From the NCBI GenBank assembly GCA_934099115.1, contig CAKOPK010000004.1, positions 13,752 to 77,751 of the forward strand: DNA of 64,000 nucleotides, written 5' to 3'. The stretch comes from an uncultured Bacilli bacterium. GTDB taxonomy: Bacteria > Bacillota_I > Bacilli_A > RF39 > UBA660. The notes below the pieces were generated by a model, which had not been told where the DNA came from, ran no database searches, and saw only the letters and a list, made by a program, of their open reading frames with translations. Positions 4,037 to 35,153 of the stretch are shown here, piece after piece; position 1 is the first letter of the stretch, and every line of letters starts with the position of its first letter. The position numbers and the translations under genes are program-made.

Positions 4037-4062
4037 TTAAAAAAGGACTAAATTATAGTCCT
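4037..4062 (-). terminator. Rho-independent terminator ending the T4SS-like operon
   Basis: Minus-strand hairpin AGGACTA-taatt-TAGTCCT overlaps the VirB4 stop codon and is followed by TTTTT. Confidence 0.6.
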
Positions 4063-5837
4063 CCTCCAGATCCAAAAGAATCTAATTCTTCTTGAGTTAC
4101 AACAACATTAATTCTCATTCTACGATTACCACAGATAAATAATGCTTCTCCTTGATTATAGTATTTAATACTATCTTTTTCAGATTCATTTAAATCAATT
4201 AATTTTGCTAAATCATCTACTGCTTGTTTTCTAAGTCCCATTACTAAATAATAAGATGCATTATCAAAGATAGCTTTTCCATGTACAATCATATTAGGAG
4301 CTGCAAAGTCTGTTGGTTGTTGGGTTATAATAATTGTTCCTGTATTATATTTTCTAGAACGTCTTTGAATTTGTGCTAAAAATTCTGCTCCAAGCTCATT
4401 TCTACTAGATAATAAAACATGGGCCTCATCAACCATCATAACAGTGTTAATATCTTTATCTAAACATAAGCCCCAGGCATATTTTAAAATATTAAAGAAT
4501 AAAGCATTTTTAATATTTTCTTCACTATTCATTAACTCTTTAATATTAAATACTATAAAGTCACTAGTAAATCTTAGGGTTGTATGGCCTGTAAAATAAT
4601 ACCTTAACTCTTTGGTTAATGGTCTAATTTTTAACTCTAAACGTTCAATAACATCTCTTTCTCTTGTAGCATCTGGCATAGATAATATTCTACCTTTTAT
4701 AGTTGCATATACATCATCAAATGTTGGATAATCTTCACTACTAAAGTTTCTAAAATCTGTATTAAAATCTATTTTATAACGTTTATATGTATCTTGAACA
4801 ATTTCACTAAACATCGTTAAGACATCTGCTTCAATATCAGGATATAAGTATTTCATAAACGCATTTAATTGTTGTAAAGTACGAGTTAAAATTGTATATC
4901 CTAATCCTTGAGCAATTTCTTCTTCATCAGCATCTACTACGACTTCTAGAGGGTTAATCATTCCAAAGTCTCCGCCTTTTCCTAAATCTAAGAAATCTCC
5001 TCCTAGTCCTCTTGCCATTTCTTCTAATTCACCCTCAGGATCAATACAAACTACTTTGCATCCATTTCTTAAATGGGTTCTTAATAATAATTTAGCAGCT
5101 GTTGATTTTCCAGAACCAGATGTACCTAATAAAATCATATTCGCATTATTACGGTTAAACTCTTTTTTGATTTGATATAAGAATTGATTAAATAAAACTA
5201 CTCCTCCAGAAAAATCTACACCAAATAGAGTTGCATTTCCTGGGTCTTTGATACTGTCAAATACAAACGGATACATGGCTGCTACTGTAACAGAAGGAAT
5301 TGGAGTACCTATTCTATCTTCTATATCTTGTTTTGGGAATATTGGAATAATTGATTTTAATACTTTTTCTTGTTCAAACATTAAACTTATTCCACGCATT
5401 CCTAAAGCATCTAAATAAGTACGTACTTGCATTTTTTTAATTTCTAAATCTTCTTTAGAATCTGCACTAATCATTACATGCATTTGAAAATCAAAAATAC
5501 GGGCTTGAGTAGCTGCTAACATAGAAATAAATTGTTCTAAAGATTCATAATCTTGACGTATTCTTTCTTGAATTGTACGGTCTCTTTCACTTTGATAACG
5601 CATTTTTAAATCTGCTATTTCTTTATTTAACATTTTTTGTAAAGTACTAAATTCAATAGGAATATGTTTAATTGCTACTTTAACTCCACTAATGCTTGTT
5701 ATATCAGATAGGTATCCAACATAAACACTTTTTGGAAAACTAATAATTGTCATTATTGTACAGTATTTACCTCCTAAAGTAAATTCTGTAGGTTTAAACT
5801 CCATTCCTTTAGGAGCTACTTCACTTTTTAAACTCAT
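4053..5837 (-). CDS. VirB4-family type IV secretion ATPase (main body)
   Basis: Walker A LGTSGSGKST, Walker B MMVDEAHVLL and the IIITQQPTDF motif. The N-terminal region (APKGMEFKPTEFTLGGKYCTIMTIISFPKSVYVGYLSDI) is typical of Gram-positive VirB4/TrsE/PrgJ-type proteins. Confidence 0.85.
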   Translation of the reverse strand: MSLKSEVAPKGMEFKPTEFTLGGKYCTIMTIISFPKSVYVGYLSDITSISGVKVAIKHIPIEFSTLQKMLNKEIADLKMRYQSERDRTIQERIRQDYESLEQFISMLAATQARIFDFQMHVMISADSKEDLEIKKMQVRTYLDALGMRGISLMFEQEKVLKSIIPIFPKQDIEDRIGTPIPSVTVAAMYPFVFDSIKDPGNATLFGVDFSGGVVLFNQFLYQIKKEFNRNNANMILLGTSGSGKSTAAKLLLRTHLRNGCKVVCIDPEGELEEMARGLGGDFLDLGKGGDFGMINPLEVVVDADEEEIAQGLGYTILTRTLQQLNAFMKYLYPDIEADVLTMFSEIVQDTYKRYKIDFNTDFRNFSSEDYPTFDDVYATIKGRILSMPDATRERDVIERLELKIRPLTKELRYYFTGHTTLRFTSDFIVFNIKELMNSEENIKNALFFNILKYAWGLCLDKDINTVMMVDEAHVLLSSRNELGAEFLAQIQRRSRKYNTGTIIITQQPTDFAAPNMIVHGKAIFDNASYYLVMGLRKQAVDDLAKLIDLNESEKDSIKYYNQGEALFICGNRRMRINVVVTQEELDSFGSGGGL

Positions 5838-6385
5838 TAGTTCATCACCGTCCCAAAATTCGTATGAGTTCCTCCGTTTAAGAAATTATCTAAAATCATT
5901 CTTAAATCATCATTTGATGTTTGTGTAGAATTTAAGCCAGAATTGGCAAGGCCACTAATTAAAGTGTGTAATTTCTTTTGAATTAGTTCCATTCTTTTTT
6001 CTTTAAATAAAATAAAATATTCGGTATCTACAACGTTATACTCTGCACTCATAAACATATTTGCTTTATTAATGTCTTGCATAATTAATTTCTTACTAAC
6101 AGGACTATTCGTGTTGTTATATAAAATTTGTAATTGCGATAAATAAATGCCAATATCTACTGGACGATCTGCTATAATTAGCCAAAATTCAAAGTTAATT
6201 GAATTATAAAAGTTTCTTAAATTACCAATAATCGCATTTTGTAAGCCTTGGTCAACAATAAAGATATTTCTAGATTGTACTTTAACTCCTGTTACATATT
6301 CTCCATTGTCTAGTTGAATCATACCATTTAAAATTTGCTTAATTGGTAACCAATCCTCACTATATCCATAATTACTTGTCTTCAT
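5837..6385 (-). CDS. Separate ORF corresponding to the N-terminal extension of Gram-positive VirB4 proteins
   Basis: The LPIKQILNGMIQLDNGEYVTGVKV... segment resembles the first 200 aa or so of Tn916-Orf16-type VirB4. Its stop overlaps the next start as TAATG. I prefer the ATG at 6385, preceded by GGAGAGG, over the track start at 6442. Confidence 0.5.
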   Translation of the reverse strand: MKTSNYGYSEDWLPIKQILNGMIQLDNGEYVTGVKVQSRNIFIVDQGLQNAIIGNLRNFYNSINFEFWLIIADRPVDIGIYLSQLQILYNNTNSPVSKKLIMQDINKANMFMSAEYNVVDTEYFILFKEKRMELIQKKLHTLISGLANSGLNSTQTSNDDLRMILDNFLNGGTHTNFGTVMN

Positions 6386-6686
6386 CACGACACCAACCTC
6401 TCCAAACATATCTTCTTTTTTCACTAAAGAATGTATATACATTTACTATAAATTGTAAAACATTATGATAATTAGGTACAGGCATTACCAAAAAGCCTGT
6501 TAATAGTGCGGGTGCTAGAATTAATATCATGACTATAATATTGGTACTTTTAATGGTTAATAATAAAACTAAAGTAATTAAAATACCAATACCAAATAAG
6601 CATGCATCAAAAAGATTTAAAAATCCTAAAATTAACTGTGATTTCTTAGAATTAGCGGGTATTAAATAATTATTCATGAATTCCAC
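6372..6686 (-). CDS. Small two-TM membrane protein, VirB3/PrgI/TcpE-like
   Basis: 104 aa with two hydrophobic helices, placed immediately upstream of VirB4 as in Gram-positive T4SS operons. AGGAG RBS. Confidence 0.5.
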   Translation of the reverse strand: MEFMNNYLIPANSKKSQLILGFLNLFDACLFGIGILITLVLLLTIKSTNIIVMILILAPALLTGFLVMPVPNYHNVLQFIVNVYTFFSEKRRYVWRGWCRDEDK

Positions 6687-6990: not shown

Positions 6991-6994
6991 TAAC

Positions 6995-7675
6995 CTAAAA
7001 TTTTCTTTTTGCTTGATTATATTCTATGTTTTGTTTTTTAACTTCTAAATCTTCTTCAACTTTTTCTAAGTTTATTACATATGCAATAGCTTTTTCATTT
7101 CTATCTCTTAGTAATTCTCCATCATTTCCTAGAATTAATTCTATATTTTCTGGAGCTCCTATAATATTTCTTGATGTTCCATTTTTAATTCTTATGAGAT
7201 TAGCCATTTTGCAATTGCCAAATATTATTATGTAATGCTTTGAAATAATATCTGTTTGTATTTGTTTTTTTAAAAGTTGTAGGCGATCTAAGTTCTCTAA
7301 AGCTTGATAAAATAATTTAAACTCATTATTATTTTGAAAAATTATGCCAGAATAATTTGCAAAAGATTTTGCAGTCGCTTCTTTTGCTTTACCGAGTTCT
7401 AATCCTTGGGATAAAAACAGAGATATCTGTTTATAATAATTGGGAGTATTATAATATTTTAAAAATTCATTTATATTTTTATAAGAATATAATCCGCTTG
7501 TAAAAGTTGTCAATTCTTTTTCAATATCTTGATATGATCGGTCATTTTTCCAAACATTGGTTATATTTGTAATATATTCTAAAATTGTATTTAGAATTTT
7601 TAAATTTATTTCATCTGATATTTCTACACCATGTGCCCAATTATAAATTGCTTCTTTTTGCCTTTTAAAGAACAT
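6995..7675 (-). CDS. Hypothetical cytoplasmic protein in the T4SS-like operon
   Basis: 226-aa ORF with no TM segments. Its start overlaps the upstream stop as TAATG. I recognise no family. Confidence 0.5.
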   Translation of the reverse strand: MFFKRQKEAIYNWAHGVEISDEINLKILNTILEYITNITNVWKNDRSYQDIEKELTTFTSGLYSYKNINEFLKYYNTPNYYKQISLFLSQGLELGKAKEATAKSFANYSGIIFQNNNEFKLFYQALENLDRLQLLKKQIQTDIISKHYIIIFGNCKMANLIRIKNGTSRNIIGAPENIELILGNDGELLRDRNEKAIAYVINLEKVEEDLEVKKQNIEYNQAKRKF

Positions 7676-25107: not shown

Positions 25108-25183
25108 TGGCGCCTGTTGTAGGACTCGAACCTACGACCTAACGGTTAACAGCCGTGCGCTCTACCGACTGAGCTAAACAGGC
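25108..25183 (-). tRNA. tRNA-Asn (anticodon GTT)
   Basis: 76-nt cloverleaf. Acceptor GCCTGTT/AACAGGC, anticodon loop CTGTTAA, T-arm GTAGGTTCGAGTCCTAC and an encoded CCA. Confidence 0.95.
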
Positions 25184-25202: not shown

Positions 25203-25231
25203 ATTATAGTAAATATTATGCTATTTGTCAA
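25203..25231 (-). promoter_or_regulatory. Consensus sigma-A promoter of tRNA-Asn
   Basis: On the minus strand, TTGACA, a 17-nt spacer, then TATAAT, about 20 nt upstream of the tRNA 5' end. Confidence 0.75.
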
Positions 25232-25291: not shown

Positions 25292-25678
25292 TTATTTGGC
25301 TGTACAACCGTCTTCTGATAATGTACCTTTACATTGAGCTTTAGCAGCTGCTTCACACTTTCCTGGACTAGAAATACATGTAGAACATACTGAATATTCA
25401 GCTTTTAAATCATTGAAGCTGCCAACCATCTTAAAGATAGCTCCTACTAAAGTTGGTACAAAGAATATGAATACACCTGCTACAGCACGCATTGCAAGAC
25501 TCTTAATTGATTTTTTAATTTCGTCATCTTTACTTGCTACTACAGCTTTTCCTAAATCAATAATACCAAAAACAATAATTATGATAGGAATTACAATCTT
25601 AAAAACAGTTAAAACATATCCTAAAAGTTGCCAAATACTCCATAAATCAGTACAAGGAGCAGCATCCATTATTAACAT
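25292..25678 (-). CDS. Minimal VirB2-like two-helix hairpin protein with a Cys-rich tail (candidate filament subunit)
   Basis: 128 aa. IPIIIIVFGIIDLGKAVVASKDDEIKKSIKSLAMRAVAGVFIFFVPTLVGAIF is followed by a C-rich tail (CSTCISSPGKCEAAAKAQCKGTLSEDGC). GAGGAA RBS. It is the last gene of the Tad-like operon. Confidence 0.5.
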   Translation of the reverse strand: MLIMDAAPCTDLWSIWQLLGYVLTVFKIVIPIIIIVFGIIDLGKAVVASKDDEIKKSIKSLAMRAVAGVFIFFVPTLVGAIFKMVGSFNDLKAEYSVCSTCISSPGKCEAAAKAQCKGTLSEDGCTAK

Positions 25679-25759
25679 ATTTATTCCTCGCTTTCTCTAT
25701 ATCTTAATTTTAACTTAACAAAGCTTTCTTGTCAAGTTTTTCGCTATATTTCTGTAAAA

Positions 25760-26548
25760 TTATAGATTCATAATTAATAAAACTGCTAATACTAGTAATA
25801 TCATTACTCCAATACCTGTTGTAATTAACATACTCATGGTTTTACTTTCCATTTTATCTAGACGATTTTTATATTTTGTTTCTCTTGCTTTTTGTTGTAG
25901 ATTAGATATTGTTTTAGAAAACGCTAATAATTGCTCTTGTTTTCTCTCCTGTCTACCTAGACTTAAACGATATAAAAGTCGCATCATACGCATGGAATCA
26001 CGAACTGGGTATTGTTTTGCAAAATTCATATACGGTTCAATAGTATCATTACCAGCATTAATTTCATTTATTAATTCTTTTAAACCATCTTTAAATATTT
26101 CGGGAGCATCTTCTAAAGATTTACCCATTGCTACCGGTACTGTGTAGTGTTGGATTAGGATTTCTAATCCCTTTAAATAGTAAGGAAGCATTGTATCAAT
26201 TTCATGTAAGTGTTTTTTATAATAACTTTTTAATTTTAAATAATCTAGCTTAAAAAAGCCAAAACCTGCAAGTAAACAAACTAGAAAATAAACATAAGAC
26301 ATATTTTTTAGTAATAAGCAAAAGACAACTAATATAATTATTAGTGCACTTTGAATTCTTTTATTAAATAATATATCTGGATTGACGGAATCGCCAAATT
26401 TGGCTTTTACATAAAAGTCATAGTCACTTTCTTTTAATTTTCTTAAATATATTTCATTATCTGCGATTAATTTACTAATACTTATCTTACCACTTTTTGT
26501 CATAATATAGAATATAATAACCGCTACAATTGTTATTTCTATTTGCAT
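25760..26548 (-). CDS. TadC-like platform protein (T2SS-F-like topology)
   Basis: TM helices flank a helical cytoplasmic domain of about 130 aa. TAATG coupling to the upstream paralog, downstream of the CpaF-type ATPase. Confidence 0.5.
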   Translation of the reverse strand: MQIEITIVAVIIFYIMTKSGKISISKLIADNEIYLRKLKESDYDFYVKAKFGDSVNPDILFNKRIQSALIIILVVFCLLLKNMSYVYFLVCLLAGFGFFKLDYLKLKSYYKKHLHEIDTMLPYYLKGLEILIQHYTVPVAMGKSLEDAPEIFKDGLKELINEINAGNDTIEPYMNFAKQYPVRDSMRMMRLLYRLSLGRQERKQEQLLAFSKTISNLQQKARETKYKNRLDKMESKTMSMLITTGIGVMILLVLAVLLIMNL

Positions 26549-27444
26549 TATTCTACCCCCACATCATCATTATAATATTTCTCACCTGTTAATAAGAAAT
26601 AACAGTTAATAATAATAATTGCATGTAAAACAATGTGAACATACCAAATATTTAATAATGCTAGATAACTTTTTTTTCCTAATAATACCTGCATTACTAA
26701 TACTAGTAAGAATAATACTAAAGCAAAGGTAATAAACTTCGTATGGAATTGTTTACGATCCATTTGGTCTCTATAAACACCTTCTACTAAAGCATCAATA
26801 TCCATACTCATGTTTTCTAGAGCTTCTCCACTATCTTTGGCACCTTCTTTAGTTATTTGTAAAAATAATTGATGCATATTTTTAACCATATAATAAGGGT
26901 ATTTTTCGTTAAAGTATTCAATAGATTCATCAATAGTACCATTTTGATAAGACATATTAATCATTGTTTTAACATCTTCTAAAACTGGGTCTTCTAGAAT
27001 TCCAGAATCTCTTACTCCTTCTAGGGACTTAACGAAACTCTGAGTAGTATTAAATTCCATGATAACGTTAGTCGTATAAACTTGGATTTGTTCAAATATG
27101 TACTCACTATAAATTCTTTTGCTACGAAGCCAAGCAAGATAAGGAATGAAAGCAATAGCTATGCCTGTATAAATAATAACTACTATTAAATTATAAAAAT
27201 ATAAAAAGGCAATAGCAGCGGCAAGCCCTCCTATAATTGCTATTTGTAGAACATAATCTTTTACAGTATACTCCTGTTTTAGTTCTTTCATTTTTTTACT
27301 AATTGTTTGAAAACTATATGGTGCATACTTTTCATAAATAATTCCAAATCTTGATTTAAAGAAATTATAAAAAGTTTCACTACCATCATTTTGTCTATAT
27401 ATAATTACAAATATTGCAATAGAAAATAAAATAACTAATACCAT
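26548..27444 (-). CDS. TadB-like platform protein (T2SS-F-like topology)
   Basis: Same topology as its neighbour, immediately downstream of the ATPase. Confidence 0.5.
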   Translation of the reverse strand: MVLVILFSIAIFVIIYRQNDGSETFYNFFKSRFGIIYEKYAPYSFQTISKKMKELKQEYTVKDYVLQIAIIGGLAAAIAFLYFYNLIVVIIYTGIAIAFIPYLAWLRSKRIYSEYIFEQIQVYTTNVIMEFNTTQSFVKSLEGVRDSGILEDPVLEDVKTMINMSYQNGTIDESIEYFNEKYPYYMVKNMHQLFLQITKEGAKDSGEALENMSMDIDALVEGVYRDQMDRKQFHTKFITFALVLFLLVLVMQVLLGKKSYLALLNIWYVHIVLHAIIIINCYFLLTGEKYYNDDVGVE

Positions 27445-27460
27445 GTAAGTACCTCCCTTT

Positions 27461-28549
27461 TTATAAAGTTTCTATATTTTCTGTTTTTTTATCATTTAAA
27501 TGGAATAAATCTTCTTCTAATATTACTCCTTGAATAGAAAGATAACTTCTTAAATGTTTGGTTGGATTATTAATTGTAAAGTTACCATCCAGTGTTTTTT
27601 GATAAATAGTATTAACTTGAGGTTTGTTATCTTCATCAACATAGAATTCACATATCTCCATAATCTCACGTTGAAATCTTCCAAGCTTTTCACTCATGTA
27701 TCCTTTTACATAGATACCAATTTGAACGTATCGATGAATTGTTGTAATAAATTGTTCTACATCAATGTTAGACTCAATTAAACTATACATACGCATTGGT
27801 ATTAAAGCTGCTTTATCTGAGTGGATAGTCGATATAATGTGGTGACCTGAAGAAATAGAGTTACGTACTGCCATAACGGCTTCCGCACTACGAACCTCGG
27901 ATAGTAAAATCCATATTGGGTTTTGTCTCATACAAGTAACTAATACATCTGAATAAGAAGCAATATTATTTGTTTTCATAGCTACTATATCACGATGTGG
28001 GAAGATACGGTCTAGATGTAGTTCTAGTGTATCTTCAATAGTAATAATTTTTTCATTTTCTTTAGTCGTGCTTGCTAAATATTTAACTAACTCTGTTTTA
28101 CCAGAACCAGTCTCTCCACTTACAATAATATTGGCATGTCCTTGAACGCACTTGAGTAAGAAATCTAGTAAATCAGCACTAACATATTCTTCTTTTAATA
28201 ATTTATCACGGTTTAAACGAATTTTTGCTGGAGTTTTACGTATAACTAATGCTACTCCATTCGTGGCAATCGATTCATGGACGAAATTAAGACGTAATTC
28301 TGTACTTTCAGCATCTAAAAAAGGATGTGCCATGTTGAATGTTTTTCCCATTACATTAGAACATTGGAATGCTAGCTTTTCTATTAATGCGTTATTAATT
28401 TCAGGTCTATCTACACGATAAACTCCTTTAGTTAACGATTTAAGCCATACTTGTCCCCCATTACTATACGAAATATCGGTAATATCATCTATATCGATAA
28501 ATTCTTTTAGTGGTCCAAAGTCTATTTGAGAAAATATTGCATCATTCAT
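27461..28549 (-). CDS. CpaF/TadA/VirB11-class secretion ATPase
   Basis: Walker A SGETGSGKTE, Walker B / Asp-box region PIWILLSEVRSAEA and His box SGHHIISTIHS. Length 362 aa. Confidence 0.85.
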   Translation of the reverse strand: MNDAIFSQIDFGPLKEFIDIDDITDISYSNGGQVWLKSLTKGVYRVDRPEINNALIEKLAFQCSNVMGKTFNMAHPFLDAESTELRLNFVHESIATNGVALVIRKTPAKIRLNRDKLLKEEYVSADLLDFLLKCVQGHANIIVSGETGSGKTELVKYLASTTKENEKIITIEDTLELHLDRIFPHRDIVAMKTNNIASYSDVLVTCMRQNPIWILLSEVRSAEAVMAVRNSISSGHHIISTIHSDKAALIPMRMYSLIESNIDVEQFITTIHRYVQIGIYVKGYMSEKLGRFQREIMEICEFYVDEDNKPQVNTIYQKTLDGNFTINNPTKHLRSYLSIQGVILEEDLFHLNDKKTENIETL

Positions 28550-28584
28550 TTAGACACCTCCTTTTTATATATATTCTTTTAATT

Positions 28585-29382
28585 TTATTGTACAACTTCG
28601 TCAGGGATATCTGAAGTATATTTTAATACTTCATTTCTTAAATATTCACTTGTTACTTTTGTTTCCCCTACTGTTGATGTATAAGTTTTATTGCCTGGTA
28701 CTGGAACTAAAGTAACATTATTTAAATATGTTGCTTTTGCTAATAATAAATATAGCTCTGATGGAACAGCAAATAATAATTCTGCTGGAACGCCAGTTTG
28801 AGTAGTTGCAAATACACTATTACCACTGCTATCGCGAACGTCTAAGATTGGTAATTTAGAAATAAATCTACCATATATTAACTTGCCGTCTGTAGATTGC
28901 ATTTTTACATATAAATCAATATAATCTCCAGGGTACATTGAATTACCATATGTGGTATGTAAATCAACTGGCAAACTAACTGGTGAGTAACCATCAGGCA
29001 TATCATTAAATACATTATTACTTATCGTATTACAAAGAGCAACTTGTTCTGTATAAAAGAATCCTCCCGTAGGAATACTAGTTCCGGTTTTAACACAATA
29101 AGGTTTTTCTGTACTTATAATATTATTTATATTTGTAATAAGAGTTTTGCTAGAGCTTACAAAAGATTGTAGTACTTCAATATTTCCTACGCTATCTTTT
29201 GTAATTTCACTGGTAGCAGTTAAACTCTTTTTGGCATAAGGTATTGATACTGTGTTAATTGCTTTCTTTACTTGATAATTATAACCTACATAAAGAACTA
29301 TAATACCTAATAAGACACCTAAAATAGTAACGGTATTTTTATTTGATAAAAATCTTTTAAAAGTAGCCACTATATTTCCCAT
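28585..29382 (-). CDS. CpaB/RcpC-like membrane-anchored assembly protein (tentative)
   Basis: N-terminal TM followed by a beta-rich domain. Its position directly upstream of the ATPase matches cpaB in monoderm Tad loci. Confidence 0.35.
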   Translation of the reverse strand: MGNIVATFKRFLSNKNTVTILGVLLGIIVLYVGYNYQVKKAINTVSIPYAKKSLTATSEITKDSVGNIEVLQSFVSSSKTLITNINNIISTEKPYCVKTGTSIPTGGFFYTEQVALCNTISNNVFNDMPDGYSPVSLPVDLHTTYGNSMYPGDYIDLYVKMQSTDGKLIYGRFISKLPILDVRDSSGNSVFATTQTGVPAELLFAVPSELYLLLAKATYLNNVTLVPVPGNKTYTSTVGETKVTSEYLRNEVLKYTSDIPDEVVQ

Positions 29383-29402
29383 TTTTATCCTCCTTCACTT
29401 TA

Positions 29403-29813
29403 TTAAGATACTACTTCTTCAGCAAAAATCTGAATAATAGCATCTGCTCTACTTGTTACATCATAACCACTTTGAACAAAATTTGTTCCACTGCTGCTTT
29501 TTACTTCTACGCTAACTTTTGGTGGAGCTTCATAAATTCCGTAAAAATTAACTTGATAAGTCTCACTAGTACCCATAGCTTCTGCAAGCATTCTAACAAA
29601 TACTTCCATAAATTTCTCTTTATTAATTTTTACTTCATTATAGTCACGATAATAACCATAGTCTACAGCCTCTAACATTGAAGCTTCTGTAATTTCTTTT
29701 AAACTATAATAATCTTGGGTAGTGGTAGTTGTAATACCTTGTACCGAAATCATTAAACCAATGATGGCAACACCCATTACAACTAACCAATAACCCCAAT
29801 AAGAACTTTGCAT
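29403..29813 (-). CDS. Small N-terminally anchored protein of unknown function
   Basis: 136 aa with one N-terminal hydrophobic helix (YWLVVMGVAIIGLMISV). Its position suggests a minor-pilin or TadE-type role, but no motif supports this. Confidence 0.4.
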   Translation of the reverse strand: MQSSYWGYWLVVMGVAIIGLMISVQGITTTTTQDYYSLKEITEASMLEAVDYGYYRDYNEVKINKEKFMEVFVRMLAEAMGTSETYQVNFYGIYEAPPKVSVEVKSSSGTNFVQSGYDVTSRADAIIQIFAEEVVS

Positions 29814-29831
29814 ACTTTAAAACTCCCCTTT

Positions 29832-32800
29832 CTACTTCCAAGATGGACCAAGCATATCATTTTCAGAAATTCGCTCTGTCCATAGAGTAAAGTAATCTTT
29901 ATTATCACTTGATACTGTACGATACTTATCATTAGCGATTAAACTATCGCTTGATACAATATTATTACCATACTTACCATCTAGTAAATCACTAATAAAT
30001 GAACTATAACATGCTACTCTTTCATAGCCATCGATAGAATAACAACTCATTGTAGAATTAGAATATCCTCCTGAATCTTCTTCAGAGTCATTGTAAGCTT
30101 TAATTACTCTAGCCGTAGAAGGATCAATAGTAATACTTAATATTGGTGTACTATCATATATAGCATTACCAGTATTTTGGATTTCTGAAATTGTGCTTCC
30201 TGCTTTTGAGTTTACATTAGCATTCCAGTTATAAGAATTTGTACCATTTGGAAATAAATTACTTAATGAAACGGTTTTCTCTACTAATGATGTGCCTGCA
30301 TCTTCGTCGTAGATACATCCAAGTCCAATACAGTCTGCTACACAGTTTCCACCATCACATGCTGTATCACAATTTGGACCAATACAATCAAAATCACAAT
30401 TTCCTTTACAACTGTTGAAATCACATACTAATTTATCTTGATCTGTAATTGGCATATTAACTAAATAAGAACAATTATATTCAAGTTTATTAGGATCTAT
30501 AACAGCACTACTTGCACCGACATATCTACCCAGATTATTCTTAGAACTAATACTATAGAATTCTCCTAAATTTTCAATATTTACACTATATTTATAAATA
30601 CCACGTTTTGTATTTAATGCTACTGGAAGTTTATTTGTTAATTCAACGCTATTATCAGATTTATTAACTGTTATTTCTCCACTTGGATATACATTATAGA
30701 ATAATGTTGCAGGTTTATATTCTGCTGAAATAACTGAAGTAGTTTTCTTATATGTTGCATCAGAAATATCTTTATAATCTGTATAACAACCGTTAGTAGT
30801 ACATACTGTATATGCAATAGATGTCTTACGGTATCCTGTTAAAGATGTTGAACAACTTGTGTAAGCTTTATCATTAATTTTAGCAGCTGTGTAAAATCCA
30901 TTGCTACTAGCTGTACCATTGCAATACCATTCAGATGAACTAATTGTAGATTTTGTTTCATCCATCTTTCCTTCTAAATTGAATTTTTCTAAATATTTTT
31001 CGTCATAGTCATAATAAACGTTAGGATCATAATTAATTTCAGAAGACCATCCAGAACATTCATTATATTCTTTTATGATTGCCTCATATTTTTCCTTTGC
31101 AGCTTGTAATGCATTTTTAGCACTTTGGAGATTTTTGGCTATATTATCTTTTAGAGTACTTTCTTTTCCACTAATTCCATCATGGCAACTAGCATAACAA
31201 CATCCACTTCTACAATAGCCTGAAACATGGCCATCTTCATAATAACTTGCATATTCTTTTTCACTAGATATTGAAATAGTTCCTGTATTATAATTCTTTG
31301 ATCTATCTTTTACATAAAAGCTTGTATATTTTGCATCTTCTACAAAATATTCTGTCCAGACGTTGGTTTGATCAGAAGCGCTGCAAGTGCAACTGCAAGA
31401 TCTATTTTTTCCACTACCAGAGCATTTTCTACAACATGGGCTAGCACTTCTTTGCTCATCTCTACTCTTGATAGGTTCTGAATCTAATGCTACCCATTTT
31501 AAGTATTCTGTGTAAGCATCAACCATAGCTACCTGAGCATCCACAATATCTTTATTATATTTATCTCTGTCAATTGTATTTGTATAACATGTTTTAGTGC
31601 CTTCTACTTTGGCTTTGAATGTAAAGTATCTTCCTGCATTTACTAGTTTAGCGGTAGGCATTGTCATTGCATAATCTTCTTTACAAGAGACTGAGCAATA
31701 GGCATTTGATTTCATTTCTGCTAAAGTAAATGAATTATCTTTTTGATCCTTTACGCCTTCAACATTGGCATTATTTTTATATGTTCCATCACCATTTTGC
31801 TGTGCTTGAGAGTCCATTTTAGAAACGAAACATGCTTTTATTTCACTTTCTTCTACTCCGTTTATTCCAACTTCATGATTATCTAATGTAGAAACTATTA
31901 AGTTGTTTGAAGAGTCACAACACTCGAAAGTATCAGCGACAGTTTTACATGTAACTTCACAAACTTCTGCATATTTTTCTTCGTCACATTCGCTCGAATT
32001 TGGATTTATATCGCATGCTGCTTTTATCCAAGAACAATCACCACAGTTAGATTCTTTTAATTCTTGACATGCGTTACTATTTAAATTTCTTGAATTAACA
32101 CAAGCGGTAATTAAATCATCACAATTGCAAGCTTCGATTAGATAAGTTTCATACGATGAAGTCCAAGGTGCTTCAAGTGAATTTTGACCTTTTTCAATTC
32201 CGATATATCTTTGAGCTTCTGCTTCTCCAGAATACCAGATAACTGCAATATAATCACCAAAATTTCCAAAATTGCTTGCACTATTTATTCCGGAAATTGA
32301 ATATTTGATTGGGGATTGTCCACATTTTAAAACGCTAATGTTAGAATCTGTGGAAGATTTCCATCCTTCAAAGTGAACTGTAATTTTTACTGTCATATCT
32401 TTTCCTGGGGTTACATAACCATCACCAACTAGATTTTGGCCTAAAATTGCTTTTACTTGATCTACTCCAGAAATAACATTTCCACCTTCGAATTCTATAT
32501 TTGAAATGTAAGCTGTTAAGCCATCATAATTACCATCTAGATTAACTCCAGTACCAGTAGTTCCAGCATTAATTATAAATTTATCTGTGGAATTAAAATC
32601 ATATATTTTGATTTCATGGACTACATCTTTGGATATGAACTCATTTCCTTTTTCACCAGTAGTTGTAATCTCTGATGCTGTTGGAGAAGTTTTAGTATCA
32701 ACTTTTCCAGTAGCATCAGAAAAATCATTTAAGAAGTCAGCAGCATCTATTAATGCTGTATTAAAATAGCTTTGTGCGTCATTCACTGGTGACCCTGTAT

Positions 32801-33503
32801 AGTAATAATTATTATCTATGCTTTTAACATTTGTTAATGGTGTTAAACCAGCATTTTTAAAGGCTTGATTTAAAGTGTTAAATGCAGATGGATCATTTTT
32901 AATCCAATTTTGGACAGTTGTAAGGCCTGCATAATAAGCATTTTTATAATCGGTATTTGCATTATTGTAATATCCATATAAATAAGTTATTCCTCTTATT
33001 GCTTGCAATCTTGCCCAGTAATCGCTTAGATTGCTATCATTTACACTTAAAATTGGGTTAGATCCACTAGCAGTTAAAACGCTCATGATTGCATAGTCGA
33101 ATGATTGTAATTTTTTACTAGAATCAGCAGTAAGTAAAAATCTTTCGGCGTATAATGTGTTTCCACCTTCATATTGAGCATCCAAGCAATATAGAGCAGA
33201 CGCTTTATCGTTATAAGCTCCGTAATAATACTTTCTATTTGAACTTCCAAAATGAGTAGTAACTCCTATATCTGTATAGAAATTACGACCTTTATTGTAA
33301 TAAATTTTAGTTGTTTGGGTACTTGATTTTAAATATTTAAGATTTCCGCCAGATGTTTTAATAACGCCATGAATTGCTCCTATACGGCAGCGATTATTAT
33401 CTAAATCACCACATTCACCATCAGCATAAACATTTGATGTAAAACCAAAAGTTACAATGCATAAGATAATAAATAAACTAGTATTTTTTAAGATATTTTT
33501 CAT
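29832..33503 (-). CDS. Giant secreted cysteine-rich protein
   Basis: 1223 aa with a signal peptide ending ...NVYA. By hand count it has about 45-50 Cys, concentrated in clusters (CNCDDLITAC..., SPCCRKCSGSGKNRSCSCTCS, YCRSGCCYASC, CDFNSCKGNCDFDCIGPNCDTACDGGNCVADCIGLGC). No anchor or sorting signal. Confidence 0.75.
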   Translation of the reverse strand: MKNILKNTSLFIILCIVTFGFTSNVYADGECGDLDNNRCRIGAIHGVIKTSGGNLKYLKSSTQTTKIYYNKGRNFYTDIGVTTHFGSSNRKYYYGAYNDKASALYCLDAQYEGGNTLYAERFLLTADSSKKLQSFDYAIMSVLTASGSNPILSVNDSNLSDYWARLQAIRGITYLYGYYNNANTDYKNAYYAGLTTVQNWIKNDPSAFNTLNQAFKNAGLTPLTNVKSIDNNYYYTGSPVNDAQSYFNTALIDAADFLNDFSDATGKVDTKTSPTASEITTTGEKGNEFISKDVVHEIKIYDFNSTDKFIINAGTTGTGVNLDGNYDGLTAYISNIEFEGGNVISGVDQVKAILGQNLVGDGYVTPGKDMTVKITVHFEGWKSSTDSNISVLKCGQSPIKYSISGINSASNFGNFGDYIAVIWYSGEAEAQRYIGIEKGQNSLEAPWTSSYETYLIEACNCDDLITACVNSRNLNSNACQELKESNCGDCSWIKAACDINPNSSECDEEKYAEVCEVTCKTVADTFECCDSSNNLIVSTLDNHEVGINGVEESEIKACFVSKMDSQAQQNGDGTYKNNANVEGVKDQKDNSFTLAEMKSNAYCSVSCKEDYAMTMPTAKLVNAGRYFTFKAKVEGTKTCYTNTIDRDKYNKDIVDAQVAMVDAYTEYLKWVALDSEPIKSRDEQRSASPCCRKCSGSGKNRSCSCTCSASDQTNVWTEYFVEDAKYTSFYVKDRSKNYNTGTISISSEKEYASYYEDGHVSGYCRSGCCYASCHDGISGKESTLKDNIAKNLQSAKNALQAAKEKYEAIIKEYNECSGWSSEINYDPNVYYDYDEKYLEKFNLEGKMDETKSTISSSEWYCNGTASSNGFYTAAKINDKAYTSCSTSLTGYRKTSIAYTVCTTNGCYTDYKDISDATYKKTTSVISAEYKPATLFYNVYPSGEITVNKSDNSVELTNKLPVALNTKRGIYKYSVNIENLGEFYSISSKNNLGRYVGASSAVIDPNKLEYNCSYLVNMPITDQDKLVCDFNSCKGNCDFDCIGPNCDTACDGGNCVADCIGLGCIYDEDAGTSLVEKTVSLSNLFPNGTNSYNWNANVNSKAGSTISEIQNTGNAIYDSTPILSITIDPSTARVIKAYNDSEEDSGGYSNSTMSCYSIDGYERVACYSSFISDLLDGKYGNNIVSSDSLIANDKYRTVSSDNKDYFTLWTERISENDMLGPSWK

Positions 33504-34255
33504 ACTATCCTACTCCTTTGTTTTTTTACTATTATCGTTGTAACTAGTCCCCCTACTGCAATAATTCCTACTGAAGTAACAATAATTATTGCTTTATGTT
33601 CTTTTAAAAATTCTTTAAAACCTTTTTTCTTTTCATCTTTTTTGATTTCTTCTCCATTATCATCTACATTACCAGCTTTGTATTTTTCTACTAAGCTTTC
33701 GAAATTATCAAAAGATACATCTACTGATAAATAAGGATGACATAAGTAAAAATTTTCTATTCCATTACACATAACAGATTCACTATAATTATTATACATC
33801 GGTGTAGTCAGTGCTAAGCTATAAAGTTTGGTGTCAGGGCAACCTGTATTGCTAGAACTGTATACATCAATTGTATAATTGTTAATTATAACTGCTAATG
33901 CTTCATCAAAATATACTGTACCATTATCAGAATCACTATATCGGTAGGTTTTGCTTTCTTTGGTAGCTTGATCTGTTACTACTACATATAAATCTTCTGT
34001 TAAATTGGTAATAGATATTCGAAAAAACTTTCTTTTTACTACATAATTTTCAAACTCTTCTTCAGAAAGTCCATCAGGAAAATTGTAATTTTCACCTACT
34101 TCAATTTCTTTTTCAATTACCTCATAATTTGCTCCTACATTAACTGCTAAACTATTTAGTTTATTTTGCTCTTCAGCAGAGCATGCAGCATCTACATTTG
34201 TAAGGCAAATTAGAAAGGTAGCTAGGCTTAATAAACAACCTTTAAATTTTTTCAT
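33500..34255 (-). CDS. Secreted protein with a C-terminal membrane anchor
   Basis: Signal peptide (…LTNVDA) and a C-terminal TM plus basic tail (IIIVTSVGIIAVGGLVTTIIVKKQRSRIV). ATGA overlap with the next gene. The ATG at 34255 is preferred to the upstream TTG. Confidence 0.55.
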   Translation of the reverse strand: MKKFKGCLLSLATFLICLTNVDAACSAEEQNKLNSLAVNVGANYEVIEKEIEVGENYNFPDGLSEEEFENYVVKRKFFRISITNLTEDLYVVVTDQATKESKTYRYSDSDNGTVYFDEALAVIINNYTIDVYSSSNTGCPDTKLYSLALTTPMYNNYSESVMCNGIENFYLCHPYLSVDVSFDNFESLVEKYKAGNVDDNGEEIKKDEKKKGFKEFLKEHKAIIIVTSVGIIAVGGLVTTIIVKKQRSRIV

Positions 34256-34279
34256 AGTATACACCAACCTCTAATCCAA

Positions 34280-34308
34280 ATTATAGCATATTTCATAATT
34301 ATTTACAA
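34280..34308 (-). promoter_or_regulatory. Putative sigma-A promoter of the Tad-like operon
   Basis: On the minus strand, TTGTAA, a 17-nt spacer, then TATAAT, between the terminator of the SPKTG gene and the first operon gene. Confidence 0.5.
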
Positions 34309-34321: not shown

Positions 34322-34357
34322 GGTGCAAAAAACAAAAAATAGCATCGCTGCTATTTT
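34322..34357 (-). terminator. Rho-independent terminator of the SPKTG surface protein gene
   Basis: Minus-strand hairpin AAAATAGCA-gcga-TGCTATTTT followed by TTGTTTTTT. It overlaps the stop codon. Confidence 0.7.
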
Positions 34358-35021
34358 AAAGTTTATAGAATTTGCTTGACTTTTTAGTGTATAAATAAAC
34401 ACAAGCTACAGCAAGTAATCCCCCGCCGATTGCAACATATGGAACTACACTTCCTGTTTTAGGGCTTGGAACATCATTATTCTTATCGTCTGTTGTAGTA
34501 TTTCCACAAATAGAATTATATTCTTCTGCAGTAATTATTTTACCACTCTTATCGAAATAAGTATTATCAATTTGTGTACATGCTAGTGGTAATGGTGCAA
34601 AAGATATCTGACAAGCACTTTCGGAATTTGAAGTGTCTCCTGTAAAGTCTGCTATAACCGTAAATAATTCTTTTTGAGTGCCATTTAGTACTTGGCCATC
34701 TTTGGTTTTCATTAAGACTGTAACAGAGCCATCATCATTCTTTTCTTCAGAAACTTTTTCAAAATAAGTACTTGAATAAGTAATTGTTATATTGTCTACA
34801 TTGGTAATTGGTTGTATTTGCATGTAAACATATCCAGCTGCATTTGTTTTGCTTACATAATAGATTTGAGTTACCTTAGGATTGGCACTAGACCATCCTG
34901 TTTCATCAATTGCAGTACCATAAAGCTTATCATTCTTACTTTTTATTTCTGCACTAACATTATTAGGCATTATAGTAAGCATCATAAACATTAAACACAT
35001 AACAGTTAAAATTTTTTTCAT
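34356..35021 (-). CDS. Cell-wall-sorted surface protein with an SPKTG sorting signal
   Basis: Signal peptide ...NNVSA. The C-terminus has SPKTG, a hydrophobic stretch and a KKSSKFYKL tail, matching the (S/P)PXTG signals recognised by clostridial class B sortases. Confidence 0.75.
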   Translation of the reverse strand: MKKILTVMCLMFMMLTIMPNNVSAEIKSKNDKLYGTAIDETGWSSANPKVTQIYYVSKTNAAGYVYMQIQPITNVDNITITYSSTYFEKVSEEKNDDGSVTVLMKTKDGQVLNGTQKELFTVIADFTGDTSNSESACQISFAPLPLACTQIDNTYFDKSGKIITAEEYNSICGNTTTDDKNNDVPSPKTGSVVPYVAIGGGLLAVACVYLYTKKSSKFYKL

Positions 35022-35153
35022 TTCAATAACCTCTCTTTGCTATTACTATTATGACACAATTATAACATAAAAATGTAAAAAAGAAAGAATTTTTTCGAAA
35101 ATTTATAAAAAAATATGTCAATCTATGATATTATTAGAATGGAGGCTAATTCT

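What the first reader, a model, noticed from the sequence alone, without database searches (positions are those of the whole stretch)
25292..34267. Tad/CpaF-type operon lacking Flp pilin, prepilin peptidase and TadZ, with a T4SS-type hairpin protein instead
Seen: eight co-directional genes run 34255->25292 behind their own TTGTAA-17-TATAAT promoter. Overlaps (ATGA at 33500-33503, TAATG at 26546-26550) and short spacers join them. In order they encode a secreted C-terminally anchored protein, a 1223-aa Cys-rich secreted protein, a 136-aa N-anchored protein, a CpaB-like protein, a CpaF/TadA/VirB11-class ATPase (GETGSGKT, LLSEVR, STIHS), two TadB/TadC-like platform proteins and the 128-aa hairpin protein. 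Not seen: any Flp-like short pilin (the spacers of about 20-90 nt leave no room), a prepilin peptidase or a TadZ/ParA ATPase. Known: Tad pili need an Flp pilin processed by TadV, and CpaF and VirB11 belong to one ATPase superfamily. The locus at 4-12 kb has VirB4, VirB3 and VirB6 but no VirB11-class ATPase. Inference: the two loci are complementary halves of a hybrid Tad/T4SS-derived machine that assembles or exports VirB2-like hairpin subunits and displays the giant Cys-rich protein. I know of no described system with this composition.
Basis: partly seen in the sequence, partly recalled or inferred. Interest (0 to 1): 0.8.

Follow-up and report, generated by a model that had tools for sequence, protein, structure and literature searches.

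The report
Split chromosomal conjugation-type pilus/secretion gene cluster
The operon is the pilus-motor half of a combined pilus and type IV secretion gene set, already known by sequence from Gram-positive conjugative plasmids, that here sits on the chromosome of an uncultured gut bacterium, split into pieces and without its pilin genes nearby.

Summary
The eight genes are real and are conserved in the same order in more than 500 species of uncultured low-GC gut Bacilli. All eight are under purifying selection (ATPase dN/dS 0.01-0.04).

The operon is not a pilin-less oddity of unknown composition. In most relatives the gap between gene 7 and gene 8 holds 2-3 short pilin-like genes, two pseudopilin-like genes and a TadZ/ParA-like gene. 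The cluster then runs into VirB2-like hairpin genes, VirB6-like, VirB3-like, TraC-like and VirB4 genes, and often a cell-wall hydrolase and a VirD4 coupling protein.

Gene 8 (the hairpin) has its own conserved promoter and is the first gene of the secretion module. The window's 4-12 kb locus is the rest of that module.

The same composite layout occurs on the Bacillus thuringiensis conjugative plasmid pBMB68. It was also described for pAW63/pXO2 (2005) and for Listeria island LGI1 (2010).

Its claims of a hairpin replacing Flp and of no described precedent are not. In this clade the pilin/TadZ module, the coupling protein and a relaxase are absent from the 64 kb window. Whether they lie elsewhere in the genome is unknown.

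The parts
34280..34308 (-). Promoter-like site TTGTAA-17-TATAAT (TG-extended) upstream of gene 1
   Evidence: It lies in the intergenic region. Such matches are not enriched over shuffles.
33500..34255 (-). Gene 1: secreted protein of about 251 aa with conserved Cys and a C-terminal membrane anchor. Its stop overlaps the start of gene 2 (ATGA).
   Evidence: Always the first gene of the cluster in relatives, 25-57% identity. dN/dS 0.2-0.5. No Pfam or NCBIfam hit.
29832..33503 (-). Gene 2: 1223-aa secreted Cys-rich protein, a candidate surface or tip adhesin. The N-terminal half is hypervariable; the C-terminal third is more conserved.
   Evidence: 48 Cys, many invariant. 24-56% identity across species. 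dN/dS 0.36-0.69. Positional counterparts: the 851-aa protein of pBMB68 and the 1416-aa 'cell surface protein' of pAW63.
29403..29813 (-). Gene 3: DUF5411 protein with an N-terminal membrane helix, possibly a minor-pilin-like or alignment subunit
   Evidence: Pfam 4e-51. Its N-terminal M-x-E/S-S-Y-W-G-Y-W motif resembles those of the pilin-like and pseudopilin-like proteins of relatives. The AF2 model has low confidence. A DUF5411 gene holds the same position in pBMB68.
28585..29382 (-). Gene 4: CpaB/RcpC-like N-anchored protein
   Evidence: Pfam RcpC 1.3e-3 for the window protein. 18 of 18 family members hit RcpC, best 8e-7. NCBIfam CpaB 9e-5. 25% identity, E 8e-12, to the SAF-domain protein of pBMB68.
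27461..28549 (-). Gene 5: CpaF/VirB11/FlaI-class hexameric secretion ATPase
   Evidence: Pfam T2SSE 5e-27. PDB: CpaF 1e-16, FlaI 2e-15, VirB11 1.4e-14. NCBIfam: VirB11 9e-33, TadA conjugation-associated 2e-29, all below cut-offs. 77-96% identical in more than 500 species. dN/dS 0.01-0.04.
26548..27444 (-). Gene 6: polytopic membrane protein, TadB-like platform candidate
   Evidence: No Pfam or PDB hit. Paralogous to gene 7 (hhalign 88.9%, E 2.4e-6). Homologous to the 316-aa protein after the ATPase of pBMB68 (E to 6e-11). dN/dS 0.06-0.10.
25760..26548 (-). Gene 7: polytopic membrane protein, TadC-like platform candidate
   Evidence: No direct Pfam or PDB hit. 3 of 60 distant homologues hit T2SSF weakly. 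The most probable Foldseek matches are GspF cytoplasmic domains, but E>1. Homologous to the 297-aa protein of pBMB68 (E 4e-8).
25707..25735 (-). Conserved promoter TTGACA-17-TAAAAT for gene 8
   Evidence: Conserved together with the GAAAGCGAGGAA ribosome-binding site in all close-clade loci despite saturated synonymous divergence. A similar motif precedes the first hairpin gene in relatives.
25292..25678 (-). Gene 8: 128-aa two-helix hairpin, VirB2/T4SS_pilin-like. It is the first gene of the T4SS unit.
   Evidence: Pfam T4SS_pilin 3.9e-5, 24.1 bits against a cut-off of 26.6. 13 of 16 family members hit, best 9e-7. Paralogous to the C-terminal hairpins of the 255-aa and 390-aa proteins at 9.9-11.8 kb.
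11062..11829 (-). 255-aa secreted Cys-rich protein with a C-terminal VirB2-like hairpin
   Evidence: Pfam T4SS_pilin 8.4e-6; sequence.
9888..11060 (-). 390-aa secreted protein with a C-terminal hairpin of the same kind
7675..9882 (-). 735-aa polytopic VirB6/TrbL-like protein with a long hydrophilic tail
   Evidence: NCBIfam pLS20_p028 conjugation membrane protein 2.5e-8. The orthologue in L084 carries a weak TrbL hit.
6995..7675 (-). 226-aa soluble protein of unknown role within the T4SS locus
   Evidence: No Pfam hit.
6372..6686 (-). Two-helix protein of about 101-104 aa, VirB3/PrgI-like by size, topology and position
   Evidence: Conserved before the TraC-like and VirB4 genes in relatives. 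In the same position as the PrgI family gene of pBMB68.
5837..6442 (-). TraC-like (PF26593) protein of about 182-201 aa
   Evidence: Precomputed Pfam on the identical gene in L206. 30% identity, E 3e-17, to the 227-aa protein before VirB4 in pBMB68.
4053..5837 (-). 594-aa VirB4-like ATPase
   Evidence: Pfam AAA_10 and P-loop_TraG. NCBIfam Mycoplasma-ICE VirB4 3e-104 and CD1110 3e-49. 28.7% identity over 614 aa to VirB4 of pBMB68.

Best explanation
The operon at 25.3-34.3 kb and the locus at 4.1-11.8 kb are two fragments of one ancestral gene cluster. That cluster combines a Tad-like (type IVc-like) pilus machine with a Gram-positive (MPF-FATA-like) type IV secretion system. It is the same composite that forms the transfer region of Bacillus cereus-group conjugative plasmids (pBMB68; pAW63/pXO2) and of Listeria island LGI1.

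In this lineage of uncultured gut Bacilli the cluster is chromosomal, inherited vertically and strongly conserved.

Shown by the sequence data:
- gene content and gene order;
- homology to the plasmid system;
- contiguity of the two halves in relatives;
- purifying selection on all eight genes;
- a separate conserved promoter for gene 8.

Inferred mechanism:
- The CpaF/VirB11-class hexamer (gene 5) drives the paralogous platform pair (genes 6 and 7).
- This extrudes a thin fibre of short pilin-like subunits. The fibre is primed by DUF5411 and pseudopilin-like proteins and guided through the wall by the CpaB-like protein (gene 4).
- The fibre carries the fast-evolving Cys-rich protein (gene 2, with its anchored partner gene 1) as adhesin.
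- The fibre brings a partner cell into contact.
- The VirB4/VirB3/VirB6/VirB2-like channel, with a hydrolase and a VirD4 coupling protein in relatives, then moves a macromolecule, most likely DNA.

In the window's own clade the pilin/pseudopilin/TadZ module, the coupling protein and the hydrolase are not next to either fragment. They are either elsewhere in the genome or lost.
For: - Conserved order of genes 1-7 in 80 of 80 species loci.
- Pilin-like, pseudopilin-like and TadZ-like genes lie between gene 7 and the hairpin in 36 of 46 non-clade loci.
- Continuous clusters run through VirB4.
- A coupling protein (T4SS-DNA_transf 2e-56) and hydrolases are present in relatives.
- Gene 8 is paralogous to the hairpins of the 4-12 kb locus.
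- A conserved promoter precedes gene 8 and the first hairpin gene of relatives.
- dN/dS is 0.01-0.69 with saturated dS.
- pBMB68 has the same composite, with detectable homology for CpaB, the ATPase, both platform proteins, the TraC-like protein, VirB4 and the coupling protein.
- Literature: pAW63 tra region (PMC1196294) and LGI1 (PMC2834635).
- No relatives on viral contigs.
Against: - No expression or functional data exist.
- The platform, TadZ-like, pilin-like and pseudopilin-like assignments rest on weak or indirect similarity.
- The pilin-like proteins lack the Flp G/XXXXEY motif, and no prepilin peptidase was seen.
- The modules are unlinked in some genomes, so physical cooperation between pilus and channel is inferred from neighbourhood only.
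- Relaxases were sought with only two queries.
- Only 64 kb (+10 kb) of this genome was visible.
Confidence: 0.7

Rival explanations
1. There are two independent systems that are merely neighbours. One is an adhesive Tad-like pilus. The other is the remnant of an integrated conjugative element whose T4SS genes are decaying or work separately.
For: - The modules can be unlinked. Some loci end at gene 7 and some begin at the pilins with no gene 7 upstream.
- The best matches of VirB4 and the VirB6-like protein are ICE and plasmid conjugation proteins.
- In the window the T4SS locus lacks a coupling protein, a hydrolase and a relaxase.
Against: - Of 57 species loci, 43 have a T4SS-type gene within 10 kb of the Tad ATPase.
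- T4SS genes are interleaved in different orders, with the coupling protein upstream of gene 1, after gene 7 or after VirB4. This argues for selection for proximity.
- The same pairing is kept on self-transmissible plasmids.
- Gene 8 is under purifying selection. Selection on the genes of the 4-12 kb locus was not measured.
Confidence: 0.15
2. In this clade the Tad-type motor has no pilins of its own. It assembles or exports the VirB2-like hairpin proteins, acting as the missing VirB11 of the T4SS, and displays the giant protein.
For: - All 11 close-clade loci with at least 3 kb of sequence after gene 7 (22 of the 23 clade loci overall) lack the pilin/TadZ module and keep the hairpin directly after gene 7.
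- The genes remain under strong purifying selection.
- The ATPase scores as well against VirB11 models as against CpaF.
Against: - The pilin module can lie at a separate locus in other genomes, so its absence from 64 kb proves little.
- Gene 8 is transcribed from its own promoter, which is ancestral to the T4SS unit.
- DUF5411 and CpaB-like genes, which are typical pilus parts, are retained.
Confidence: 0.1
3. It is a sporulation-associated envelope machine, for example a channel or spore-surface fibre system analogous to SpoIIIA-SpoIIQ, rather than a cell-to-cell transfer apparatus.
For: - The organism has sporulation genes: SpoIIP and the germination protease lie between the two loci.
- The hydrolases in relatives carry SpoIID domains, and L084 lies next to spoIID and M23 genes.
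Against: - Component-level homology is to conjugation systems: VirB4, VirD4, TrbL, PrgI and TraC-like proteins.
- The upstream sites found match the housekeeping TTGACA/TATAAT consensus. No scan for sporulation-sigma promoters was run.
- The same composite sits on plasmids next to relaxases.
Confidence: 0.05

Closest known systems
Transfer region of Bacillus thuringiensis conjugative plasmid pBMB68 (NZ_CP010581.1) and the pAW63/pXO2/pBT9727 tra region
   Same: The composite and largely the same local orders are shared:
- VirB2-like hairpin, TrbL/VirB6, PrgI/VirB3, TraC-like protein, VirB4, cell-wall hydrolase;
- large secreted surface protein, DUF5411, SAF/CpaB-like protein, CpaF/VirB11-class ATPase, two membrane platform proteins, small pilin-like and pseudopilin-like proteins;
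- TadZ/ParA-like proteins.
Pairwise homology was detected for CpaB, the ATPase, both platform proteins, the TraC-like protein, VirB4 and the coupling protein.
   Different: - The plasmids carry a relaxase and a coupling protein next to the T4SS and are self-transmissible. The window has neither in 64 kb.
- The window's cluster is chromosomal and split by 13.5 kb of housekeeping genes.
- It lacks the pilin/pseudopilin/TadZ module in cis.
- Identities are low (21-31%).
- The window's T4SS locus has hairpins fused to large secreted domains.
Listeria monocytogenes genomic island LGI1 and the proposed pXO1 secretion system (Gilmour 2010, PMC2834635; Grynberg 2007 as cited there)
   Same: These are Firmicutes clusters described as combining virB4, virD4, virB11, virB6 and related genes with cpa/tad pilus-type genes, a hydrolase and an adhesin.
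   Different: They are horizontally acquired islands or plasmids of restricted distribution. No sequence comparison with LGI1 was made here.
Canonical Tad/Flp (type IVc) pilus, e.g. Caulobacter Cpa, Aggregatibacter Tad, Bifidobacterium breve Tad
   Same: - An ATPase of the CpaF clade followed by two paralogous platform proteins.
- A CpaB/RcpC-like protein.
- In relatives, short pilins with a strongly conserved hydrophobic N-terminus, two pseudopilin-like proteins and a TadZ-like protein with an N-terminal domain plus a degenerate ParA domain.
   Different: - No Flp G/XXXXEY motif and no Pfam Flp, TadE or T2SSF hits.
- No TadV seen.
- Extra conserved genes: the anchored protein, the giant Cys-rich protein and DUF5411.
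- Physical linkage to a T4SS.
CpaF-PilC-DUF5411 operon predicted in Roseburia, Ruminococcus and Eubacterium (Miller et al. 2022, PMC9523054)
   Same: An operon of 8-9 genes with CpaF, a PilC/GspF-type protein, DUF5411 and a large surface protein, flagged as an uncharacterised secretion-related system.
   Different: It was described without T4SS genes. The platform there is a single PilC-like protein of about 434 aa. No sequences were compared here.
Chromosomal relaxase-less T4SS of Patescibacteria with VirB2-like gene arrays (bioRxiv 10.1101/2025.01.22.634366)
   Same: A monoderm organism with a reduced genome, a chromosomal MPF-FATA-related VirB4/VirB3/VirB6 set, several PF18895-type VirB2-like genes and no relaxase nearby.
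   Different: It is a different phylum, and no linked CpaF-type module was reported there.
IncI plasmid R64 thin pilus plus T4SS
   Same: A type IV pilus with a variable tip adhesin, encoded beside a conjugative T4SS and used for mating-pair formation (mentioned). This is a functional analogy only.
   Different: It is a Gram-negative type IVb pilus and is not homologous at the operon level.

Membership tests
Tad/Flp (type IVc) pilus system | TadA/CpaF-type ATPase | tested here: met
   Pfam T2SSE 94.8 bits, above the cut-off. The best PDB match is CpaF at 1e-16, but FlaI and VirB11 are nearly equal. All NCBIfam equivalog scores are below their cut-offs. Membership holds at superfamily or clade level only.
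Tad/Flp (type IVc) pilus system | TadB and TadC platform proteins (T2SSF domain) | tested here: inconclusive
   - No Pfam, NCBIfam or PDB sequence hit.
- Genes 6 and 7 are paralogues (hhalign 88.9%).
- 3 of 60 distant homologues hit T2SSF weakly.
- The Foldseek matches with the highest probability are GspF cytoplasmic domains, but E>1 on a model of pLDDT 66.
Tad/Flp (type IVc) pilus system | Flp-type pilin with the G/XXXXEY processing motif | tested here: not met
   None is in the window. Relatives have 75-92-aa proteins starting MKEATGELNMTVV with a hydrophobic helix and a Cys-rich tail. These have no Flp motif and only a faint archaeal Pilin_N hit.
Tad/Flp (type IVc) pilus system | Dedicated prepilin peptidase (TadV, peptidase A24) | tested here: not met
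   No A24 hit among about 50 of the window's 64 ORFs of at least 100 aa that were scanned. The rest of the genome could not be searched.
Tad/Flp (type IVc) pilus system | TadZ/CpaE (receiver-like domain plus ParA-like domain) | tested here: not met
   Absent from the window and from all clade loci. Relatives have a protein of about 331 aa with this architecture, but support is weak: CbiA in 3 of 18 members, best 0.0018, and no PDB hit.
Tad/Flp (type IVc) pilus system | CpaB/RcpC | tested here: met
   RcpC hits in 18 of 18 family members, best 8e-7. The window protein alone is below the cut-off at 1.3e-3. NCBIfam CpaB 9e-5.
Gram-positive conjugation-type T4SS (MPF-FATA-like; pAW63/pBMB68/LGI1 type) | VirB4 ATPase | tested here: met
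   Pfam AAA_10 and P-loop_TraG above their cut-offs. NCBIfam Mycoplasma-ICE VirB4 3e-104, 349 bits against an equivalog cut-off of 590.
Gram-positive conjugation-type T4SS (MPF-FATA-like; pAW63/pBMB68/LGI1 type) | VirB6/TrbL-like and VirB3/PrgI-like membrane proteins next to VirB4 | tested here: inconclusive
   The 735-aa protein scores 2.5e-8 against pLS20_p028, below the cut-off. The orthologue in L084 has a weak TrbL hit. The VirB3-like assignment rests on size, topology and position only.
Gram-positive conjugation-type T4SS (MPF-FATA-like; pAW63/pBMB68/LGI1 type) | VirD4-type coupling protein | tested here: not met
   None is in the window. It is present in the cluster of at least 10 relatives (T4SS-DNA_transf 2e-56).
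Gram-positive conjugation-type T4SS (MPF-FATA-like; pAW63/pBMB68/LGI1 type) | Relaxase / origin of transfer (needed for a conjugative element) | tested here: not met
   No homologue of the MobP3 or MobQ relaxases in the window or in about 200 related loci. No relaxase domain among the window proteins scanned. Other MOB families and oriT were not searched.
Gram-positive conjugation-type T4SS (MPF-FATA-like; pAW63/pBMB68/LGI1 type) | Linked CpaF/VirB11-class ATPase module with DUF5411, a CpaB-like protein and a large surface protein | tested here: met
   Same composite and local order as pBMB68, with pairwise homology.
VirB2/TrbC-type T4SS pilin (Pfam T4SS_pilin PF18895) | Two-helix hairpin matching the family model | tested here: inconclusive
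   Gene 8 scores 24.1 bits against a cut-off of 26.6. 13 of 16 orthologues hit, best 9e-7. One relative also hits CagC. No evidence on polymerisation.

The most novel reading that the evidence does not exclude
A conjugation apparatus of the pAW63/LGI1 type (Tad-like pilus plus T4SS) has been domesticated on the chromosome of a whole lineage of small-genome gut Bacilli. It is kept under very strong selection for a non-plasmid function such as DNA exchange or uptake, or contact with partner cells, in parallel with the essential T4SS and pili of Patescibacteria. In the window's clade the motor has lost its own pilins and now serves the VirB2-like/T4SS part as a VirB11 equivalent.
Probability: 0.12. 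Interest if true: 0.8.

Novelty: new variant of a known kind. Interest (0 to 1): 0.5.

Why it matters
A recent review states that Gram-positive T4SSs universally lack VirB11 homologues and that pilus-forming potential among monoderms is unique to Patescibacteria (PMC12857230).

This cluster, together with its plasmid relatives, shows a recurrent and conserved pairing in Bacillota. An MPF-FATA-like T4SS carrying VirB2-like genes is paired with a CpaF/VirB11-class motor and a Tad-like fibre module.

Here the pairing is chromosomal and has no relaxase in view. It is present in more than 500 uncultured gut species, and its ATPase is among the most constrained proteins seen in these loci. That makes it a candidate lifestyle-critical surface machine in a poorly understood group of gut bacteria. 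It is also a natural series of rearranged variants for asking which parts must stay together.

Tried and rejected
- Profile searches of genes 6 and 7, the TadZ-like family and the CpaB-like family against PDB sequences gave nothing useful.
- Pfam scans of every member of the gene 6 and gene 7 families gave no T2SSF hit.
- The AlphaFold model of DUF5411 had pLDDT 59, and its Foldseek matches were meaningless.
- The gene 7 model (pLDDT 66) gave only non-significant GspF matches.
- tblastn for the pilin, pseudopilin and TadZ-like genes found nothing in the window or beyond its left end. The right-end walk gave only a 2-kb contig.
- A metagenome scan with the pilin N-terminus showed that the module can be unlinked, but it could not be tied to this clade.
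- A prophage or phage origin was rejected: no relatives on viral contigs.
- Recent horizontal spread as the reason for the 77-96% ATPase identity was rejected, because dS is saturated.
- Rfam found only tRNA-Asn and tmRNA.
- Literature searches for RF39 with T4SS, for CpaF with VirB2, and for a Tad pilus in pAW63/pXO2 found no functional study.
- The canonical Tad locus of Bulleidia (PMC12786226) is a different system.
- NCBI taxonomy gave no useful placement.

Full report
**1. What is in the window**

The window has about 27% G+C. Eight minus-strand ORFs occupy 34267-25292 with overlaps or 16-81-nt spacers.

- Pfam gives T2SSE (5e-27) for the 362-aa ATPase and DUF5411 (4e-51) for the 136-aa protein.
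- It gives a weak RcpC/CpaB hit for the 265-aa protein and a weak T4SS_pilin hit (24.1 bits, cut-off 26.6) for the 128-aa hairpin.
- It gives nothing for the two polytopic proteins, the giant protein or the anchored protein.
- tRNA-Asn follows the operon.
- The 4-12 kb locus encodes a VirB4-like ATPase, a VirB6-like polytopic protein, a VirB3-like two-helix protein and a TraC-like protein. It also encodes two secreted proteins whose C-termini are hairpins of the same family as gene 8.
- No prepilin peptidase, Flp, TadE or TadZ domain was found among the window proteins scanned.

**2. Distribution and selection**

- The ATPase has relatives of 77-96% identity in more than 500 species-representative genomes, all uncultured Bacilli, 'Tenericutes' or Mycoplasma sp. 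CAG:776-like gut MAGs.
- In all 80 loci fetched, genes 1-7 keep the same order.
- Conservation falls from the ATPase and the two membrane proteins (60-96%) to the giant protein (24-56%).
- Within the window's own clade, synonymous sites are saturated (dS about 1-1.5). dN/dS is 0.01-0.04 for the ATPase, 0.05-0.11 for genes 6 and 7, 0.12-0.39 for genes 3, 4 and 8, and 0.2-0.7 for genes 1 and 2.
- The high identity therefore reflects constraint, not recent transfer, and the operon is functional.
- No relative lies on viral contigs.

**3. What relatives have between gene 7 and gene 8**

In L030 and most non-clade loci the interval holds three kinds of gene:

- two or three genes of 75-92 aa, whose products start with the almost invariant MKEATGELNMTVVTVVAIAAVAAFFYAFVWP and end in a Cys-rich tail;
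- two genes of about 165 aa starting MREAIGGTW plus a hydrophobic helix;
- a gene of about 331 aa with an N-terminal domain and a degenerate ParA-like C-terminal domain.

These look like major pilins, pseudopilins and TadZ, but database support is faint. DUF5411 proteins share the M-K/R-E-S/A..G N-terminal pattern.

Among 46 non-clade loci with at least 3 kb after gene 7, 36 have this module. All 11 such clade loci lack it and have the hairpin gene directly after gene 7.

The window, and 10 kb beyond its left end, has no homologue. In other genomes the module starts a locus of its own with no gene 7 upstream (L090, L121, L144, L168). Other loci end at gene 7. Absence from this window therefore does not show absence from the genome.

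**4. The two loci are halves of one cluster**

- After the TadZ-like gene, relatives continue with one to five hairpin genes, then a VirB6/TrbL-like gene, a VirB3-like gene, a TraC-like gene and a 594-aa VirB4 at 65-80% identity to the window's.
- A SpoIID/CHAP, NlpC-P60 or M23/lysozyme hydrolase often follows, and then a VirD4-type coupling protein (T4SS-DNA_transf 2e-56).
- The coupling protein sits after VirB4, after gene 7, after TadZ or upstream of gene 1 in different genomes. This pattern is expected if proximity is selected.
- Of 57 species loci, 43 have a T4SS-type gene within 10 kb of the Tad-type ATPase.
- Gene 8 is preceded by CTTGACA-17-TAAAAT and a conserved ribosome-binding site in every clade locus. 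A similar motif precedes the first hairpin gene in relatives.
- Gene 8 is therefore the first gene of the T4SS transcription unit. It was left attached to the Tad-like operon when the cluster was broken by about 13.5 kb of housekeeping genes: tRNA-Asn, AddAB, LemA, DUF2207, a transglutaminase-like protein, GPR, SpoIIP and a Mur ligase.

**5. Identity of the parts**

- The ATPase is equidistant from CpaF, FlaI and VirB11 and falls below every NCBIfam equivalog cut-off.
- Genes 6 and 7 are paralogues (hhalign 88.9%, E 2.4e-6).
- 478 cluster representatives match gene 7, including fused proteins of about 500 aa. Three of 60 distant ones hit T2SSF weakly.
- The gene 7 model is all-helical (pLDDT 66). 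Its most probable Foldseek matches are GspF cytoplasmic domains, although not significant.
- The CpaB-like assignment holds at family level (18 of 18 members), as does T4SS_pilin for the hairpins (13 of 16).
- The DUF5411 model is of low confidence: a membrane helix, a long helix, a short helix and three strands. It is compatible with a pilin-like or PilO-like protein but does not diagnose either.

**6. Comparison with what is known**

tblastn against plasmids led to Bacillus plasmids. B. thuringiensis pBMB68, typed as conjugative, carries the following in one direction:

- MobP3 relaxase, VirD4-like protein, a 126-aa signal-peptide hairpin, TrbL, PrgI, a 227-aa protein, VirB4 and NlpC/P60;
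- a 436-aa TadZ-like protein, an SLH protein and an 851-aa protein;
- DUF5411, a SAF/CpaB protein, a ParA-like ATPase and a T2SS/T4P/T4SS ATPase;
- two membrane proteins, a 115-aa pilin-like protein and DUF4320.

The window and its relatives show pairwise homology for CpaB (8e-12), the ATPase (4e-35), both platform proteins (to 6e-11 and 4e-8), the TraC-like protein (3e-17), VirB4 (2e-80) and the coupling protein (7e-70). A B. subtilis plasmid has a simpler version of the Tad-like operon next to a MobQ relaxase.

- The pAW63/pXO2/pBT9727 tra region was published in 2005 with 'VirB11, VirB4 and VirD4' homologues. It has the same local layout: a 1416-aa surface protein, small proteins, VirB11, two proteins of about 250-280 aa, small proteins, a membrane protein and VirD4.
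- Listeria LGI1 was described in 2010 as a T4SS plus cpa/tad genes, with related islands in clostridia and a similar proposal for pXO1.
- Miller et al. 2022 flagged a CpaF-PilC-DUF5411 operon in Clostridia as an unknown secretion-related system.
- I found no functional study of the Tad-like module in any of these.
- A 2025 review still states that Gram-positive T4SSs universally lack VirB11.

**7. Verdict**

The inference that the two loci are complementary is supported by conserved neighbourhood. The system, however, is a member of an already sequenced and described, though functionally unstudied, kind.

New features here:

- the chromosomal, vertically inherited and highly constrained state across a large group of uncultured gut Bacilli;
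- the apparent lack of a relaxase (a limited test);
- the modular shuffling of the cluster;
- in this clade, the loss or relocation of the pilin/pseudopilin/TadZ module, the hydrolase and the coupling protein.

The mechanism is inference by analogy with Tad pili and conjugative T4SSs: a pilus brings cells together and the T4SS channel moves a macromolecule.

Noticed in passing
window 34356-36758: Directly upstream of the operon lies a 221-aa secreted protein ending in an SPKTG sortase-type sorting signal. A 547-aa sortase-domain protein is divergently transcribed from it. The 221-aa protein also lies upstream of gene 1 in several clade relatives (31-54% identity) but not in others.
   Followed up: partly
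window 6687-6994 (minus strand): A 308-nt gene-free gap sits inside the T4SS locus, between the 226-aa gene and the VirB3-like gene. Its G+C looks higher than its surroundings by eye (not measured), it has modest predicted structure (z = -2.05) and a TGATATAAT-like -10 element at its end. There is no Rfam match. L063 and L066 have only about 20 nt at this position.
   Followed up: partly
window 13708-15556: SpoIIP and germination protease (GPR) genes show that this small-genome, 27% G+C 'Mycoplasma-like' bacterium is a likely spore former with a cell wall. Mur ligase and MurJ-like genes are also present.
   Followed up: no
window 136-3930: Downstream of VirB4 lie a DHHW protein and an MBOAT O-acyltransferase pair, then a 349-aa collagen-triple-helix-repeat protein. 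In relatives a cell-wall hydrolase occupies this position.
   Followed up: no
window 25203-25231 and 25108-25183: A perfect-consensus promoter, TTGACA-17-TATAAT, drives tRNA-Asn immediately after gene 8. A terminator-like hairpin follows the tRNA at 25097-25069.
   Followed up: no
window 44344-46230: A 628-aa protein with Listeria-Bacteroides (InlB B-type) repeats. Miller et al. noted an internalin-like protein in the Clostridial CpaF-DUF5411 operon. Here the repeat protein lies 10 kb away, and no link is shown.
   Followed up: no
L077 15070-17394; L168 1045-1467: Relatives encode classical type IV pilin-like proteins with KGFTLIE/KGFTLVE N-termini near the cluster (774 aa and 140 aa). This implies that a PilD/ComC-type prepilin peptidase exists in these genomes.
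   Followed up: no
L066 7051-8577; L005, L007 and L014 between genes 3 and 4: In L066 the DUF5411 gene is extended to 508 aa. In L005, L007 and L014 there is about 1 kb more between the starts of the DUF5411 and CpaB-like genes than in the window. The extra sequence was not examined.
   Followed up: no
L209 (B. subtilis plasmid CP120579.1) 9791-18085: A compact operon lies next to a MobQ relaxase on a plasmid typed as non-mobilizable. It encodes a Ser-rich protein, a 775-aa secreted protein, a 126-aa N-anchored protein, the ATPase, two membrane proteins, a 114-aa N-anchored protein and 47-aa and 65-aa pilin-like proteins. Only the ATPase matches the window's proteins (31% identity); the resemblance to the Tad-like module is otherwise one of gene order and protein size. 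About 547 Bacillus plasmid records match the ATPase.
   Followed up: partly
window 54943-55313: A tmRNA gene with the tag peptide DKNESSFAPNAYAFA.
   Followed up: no
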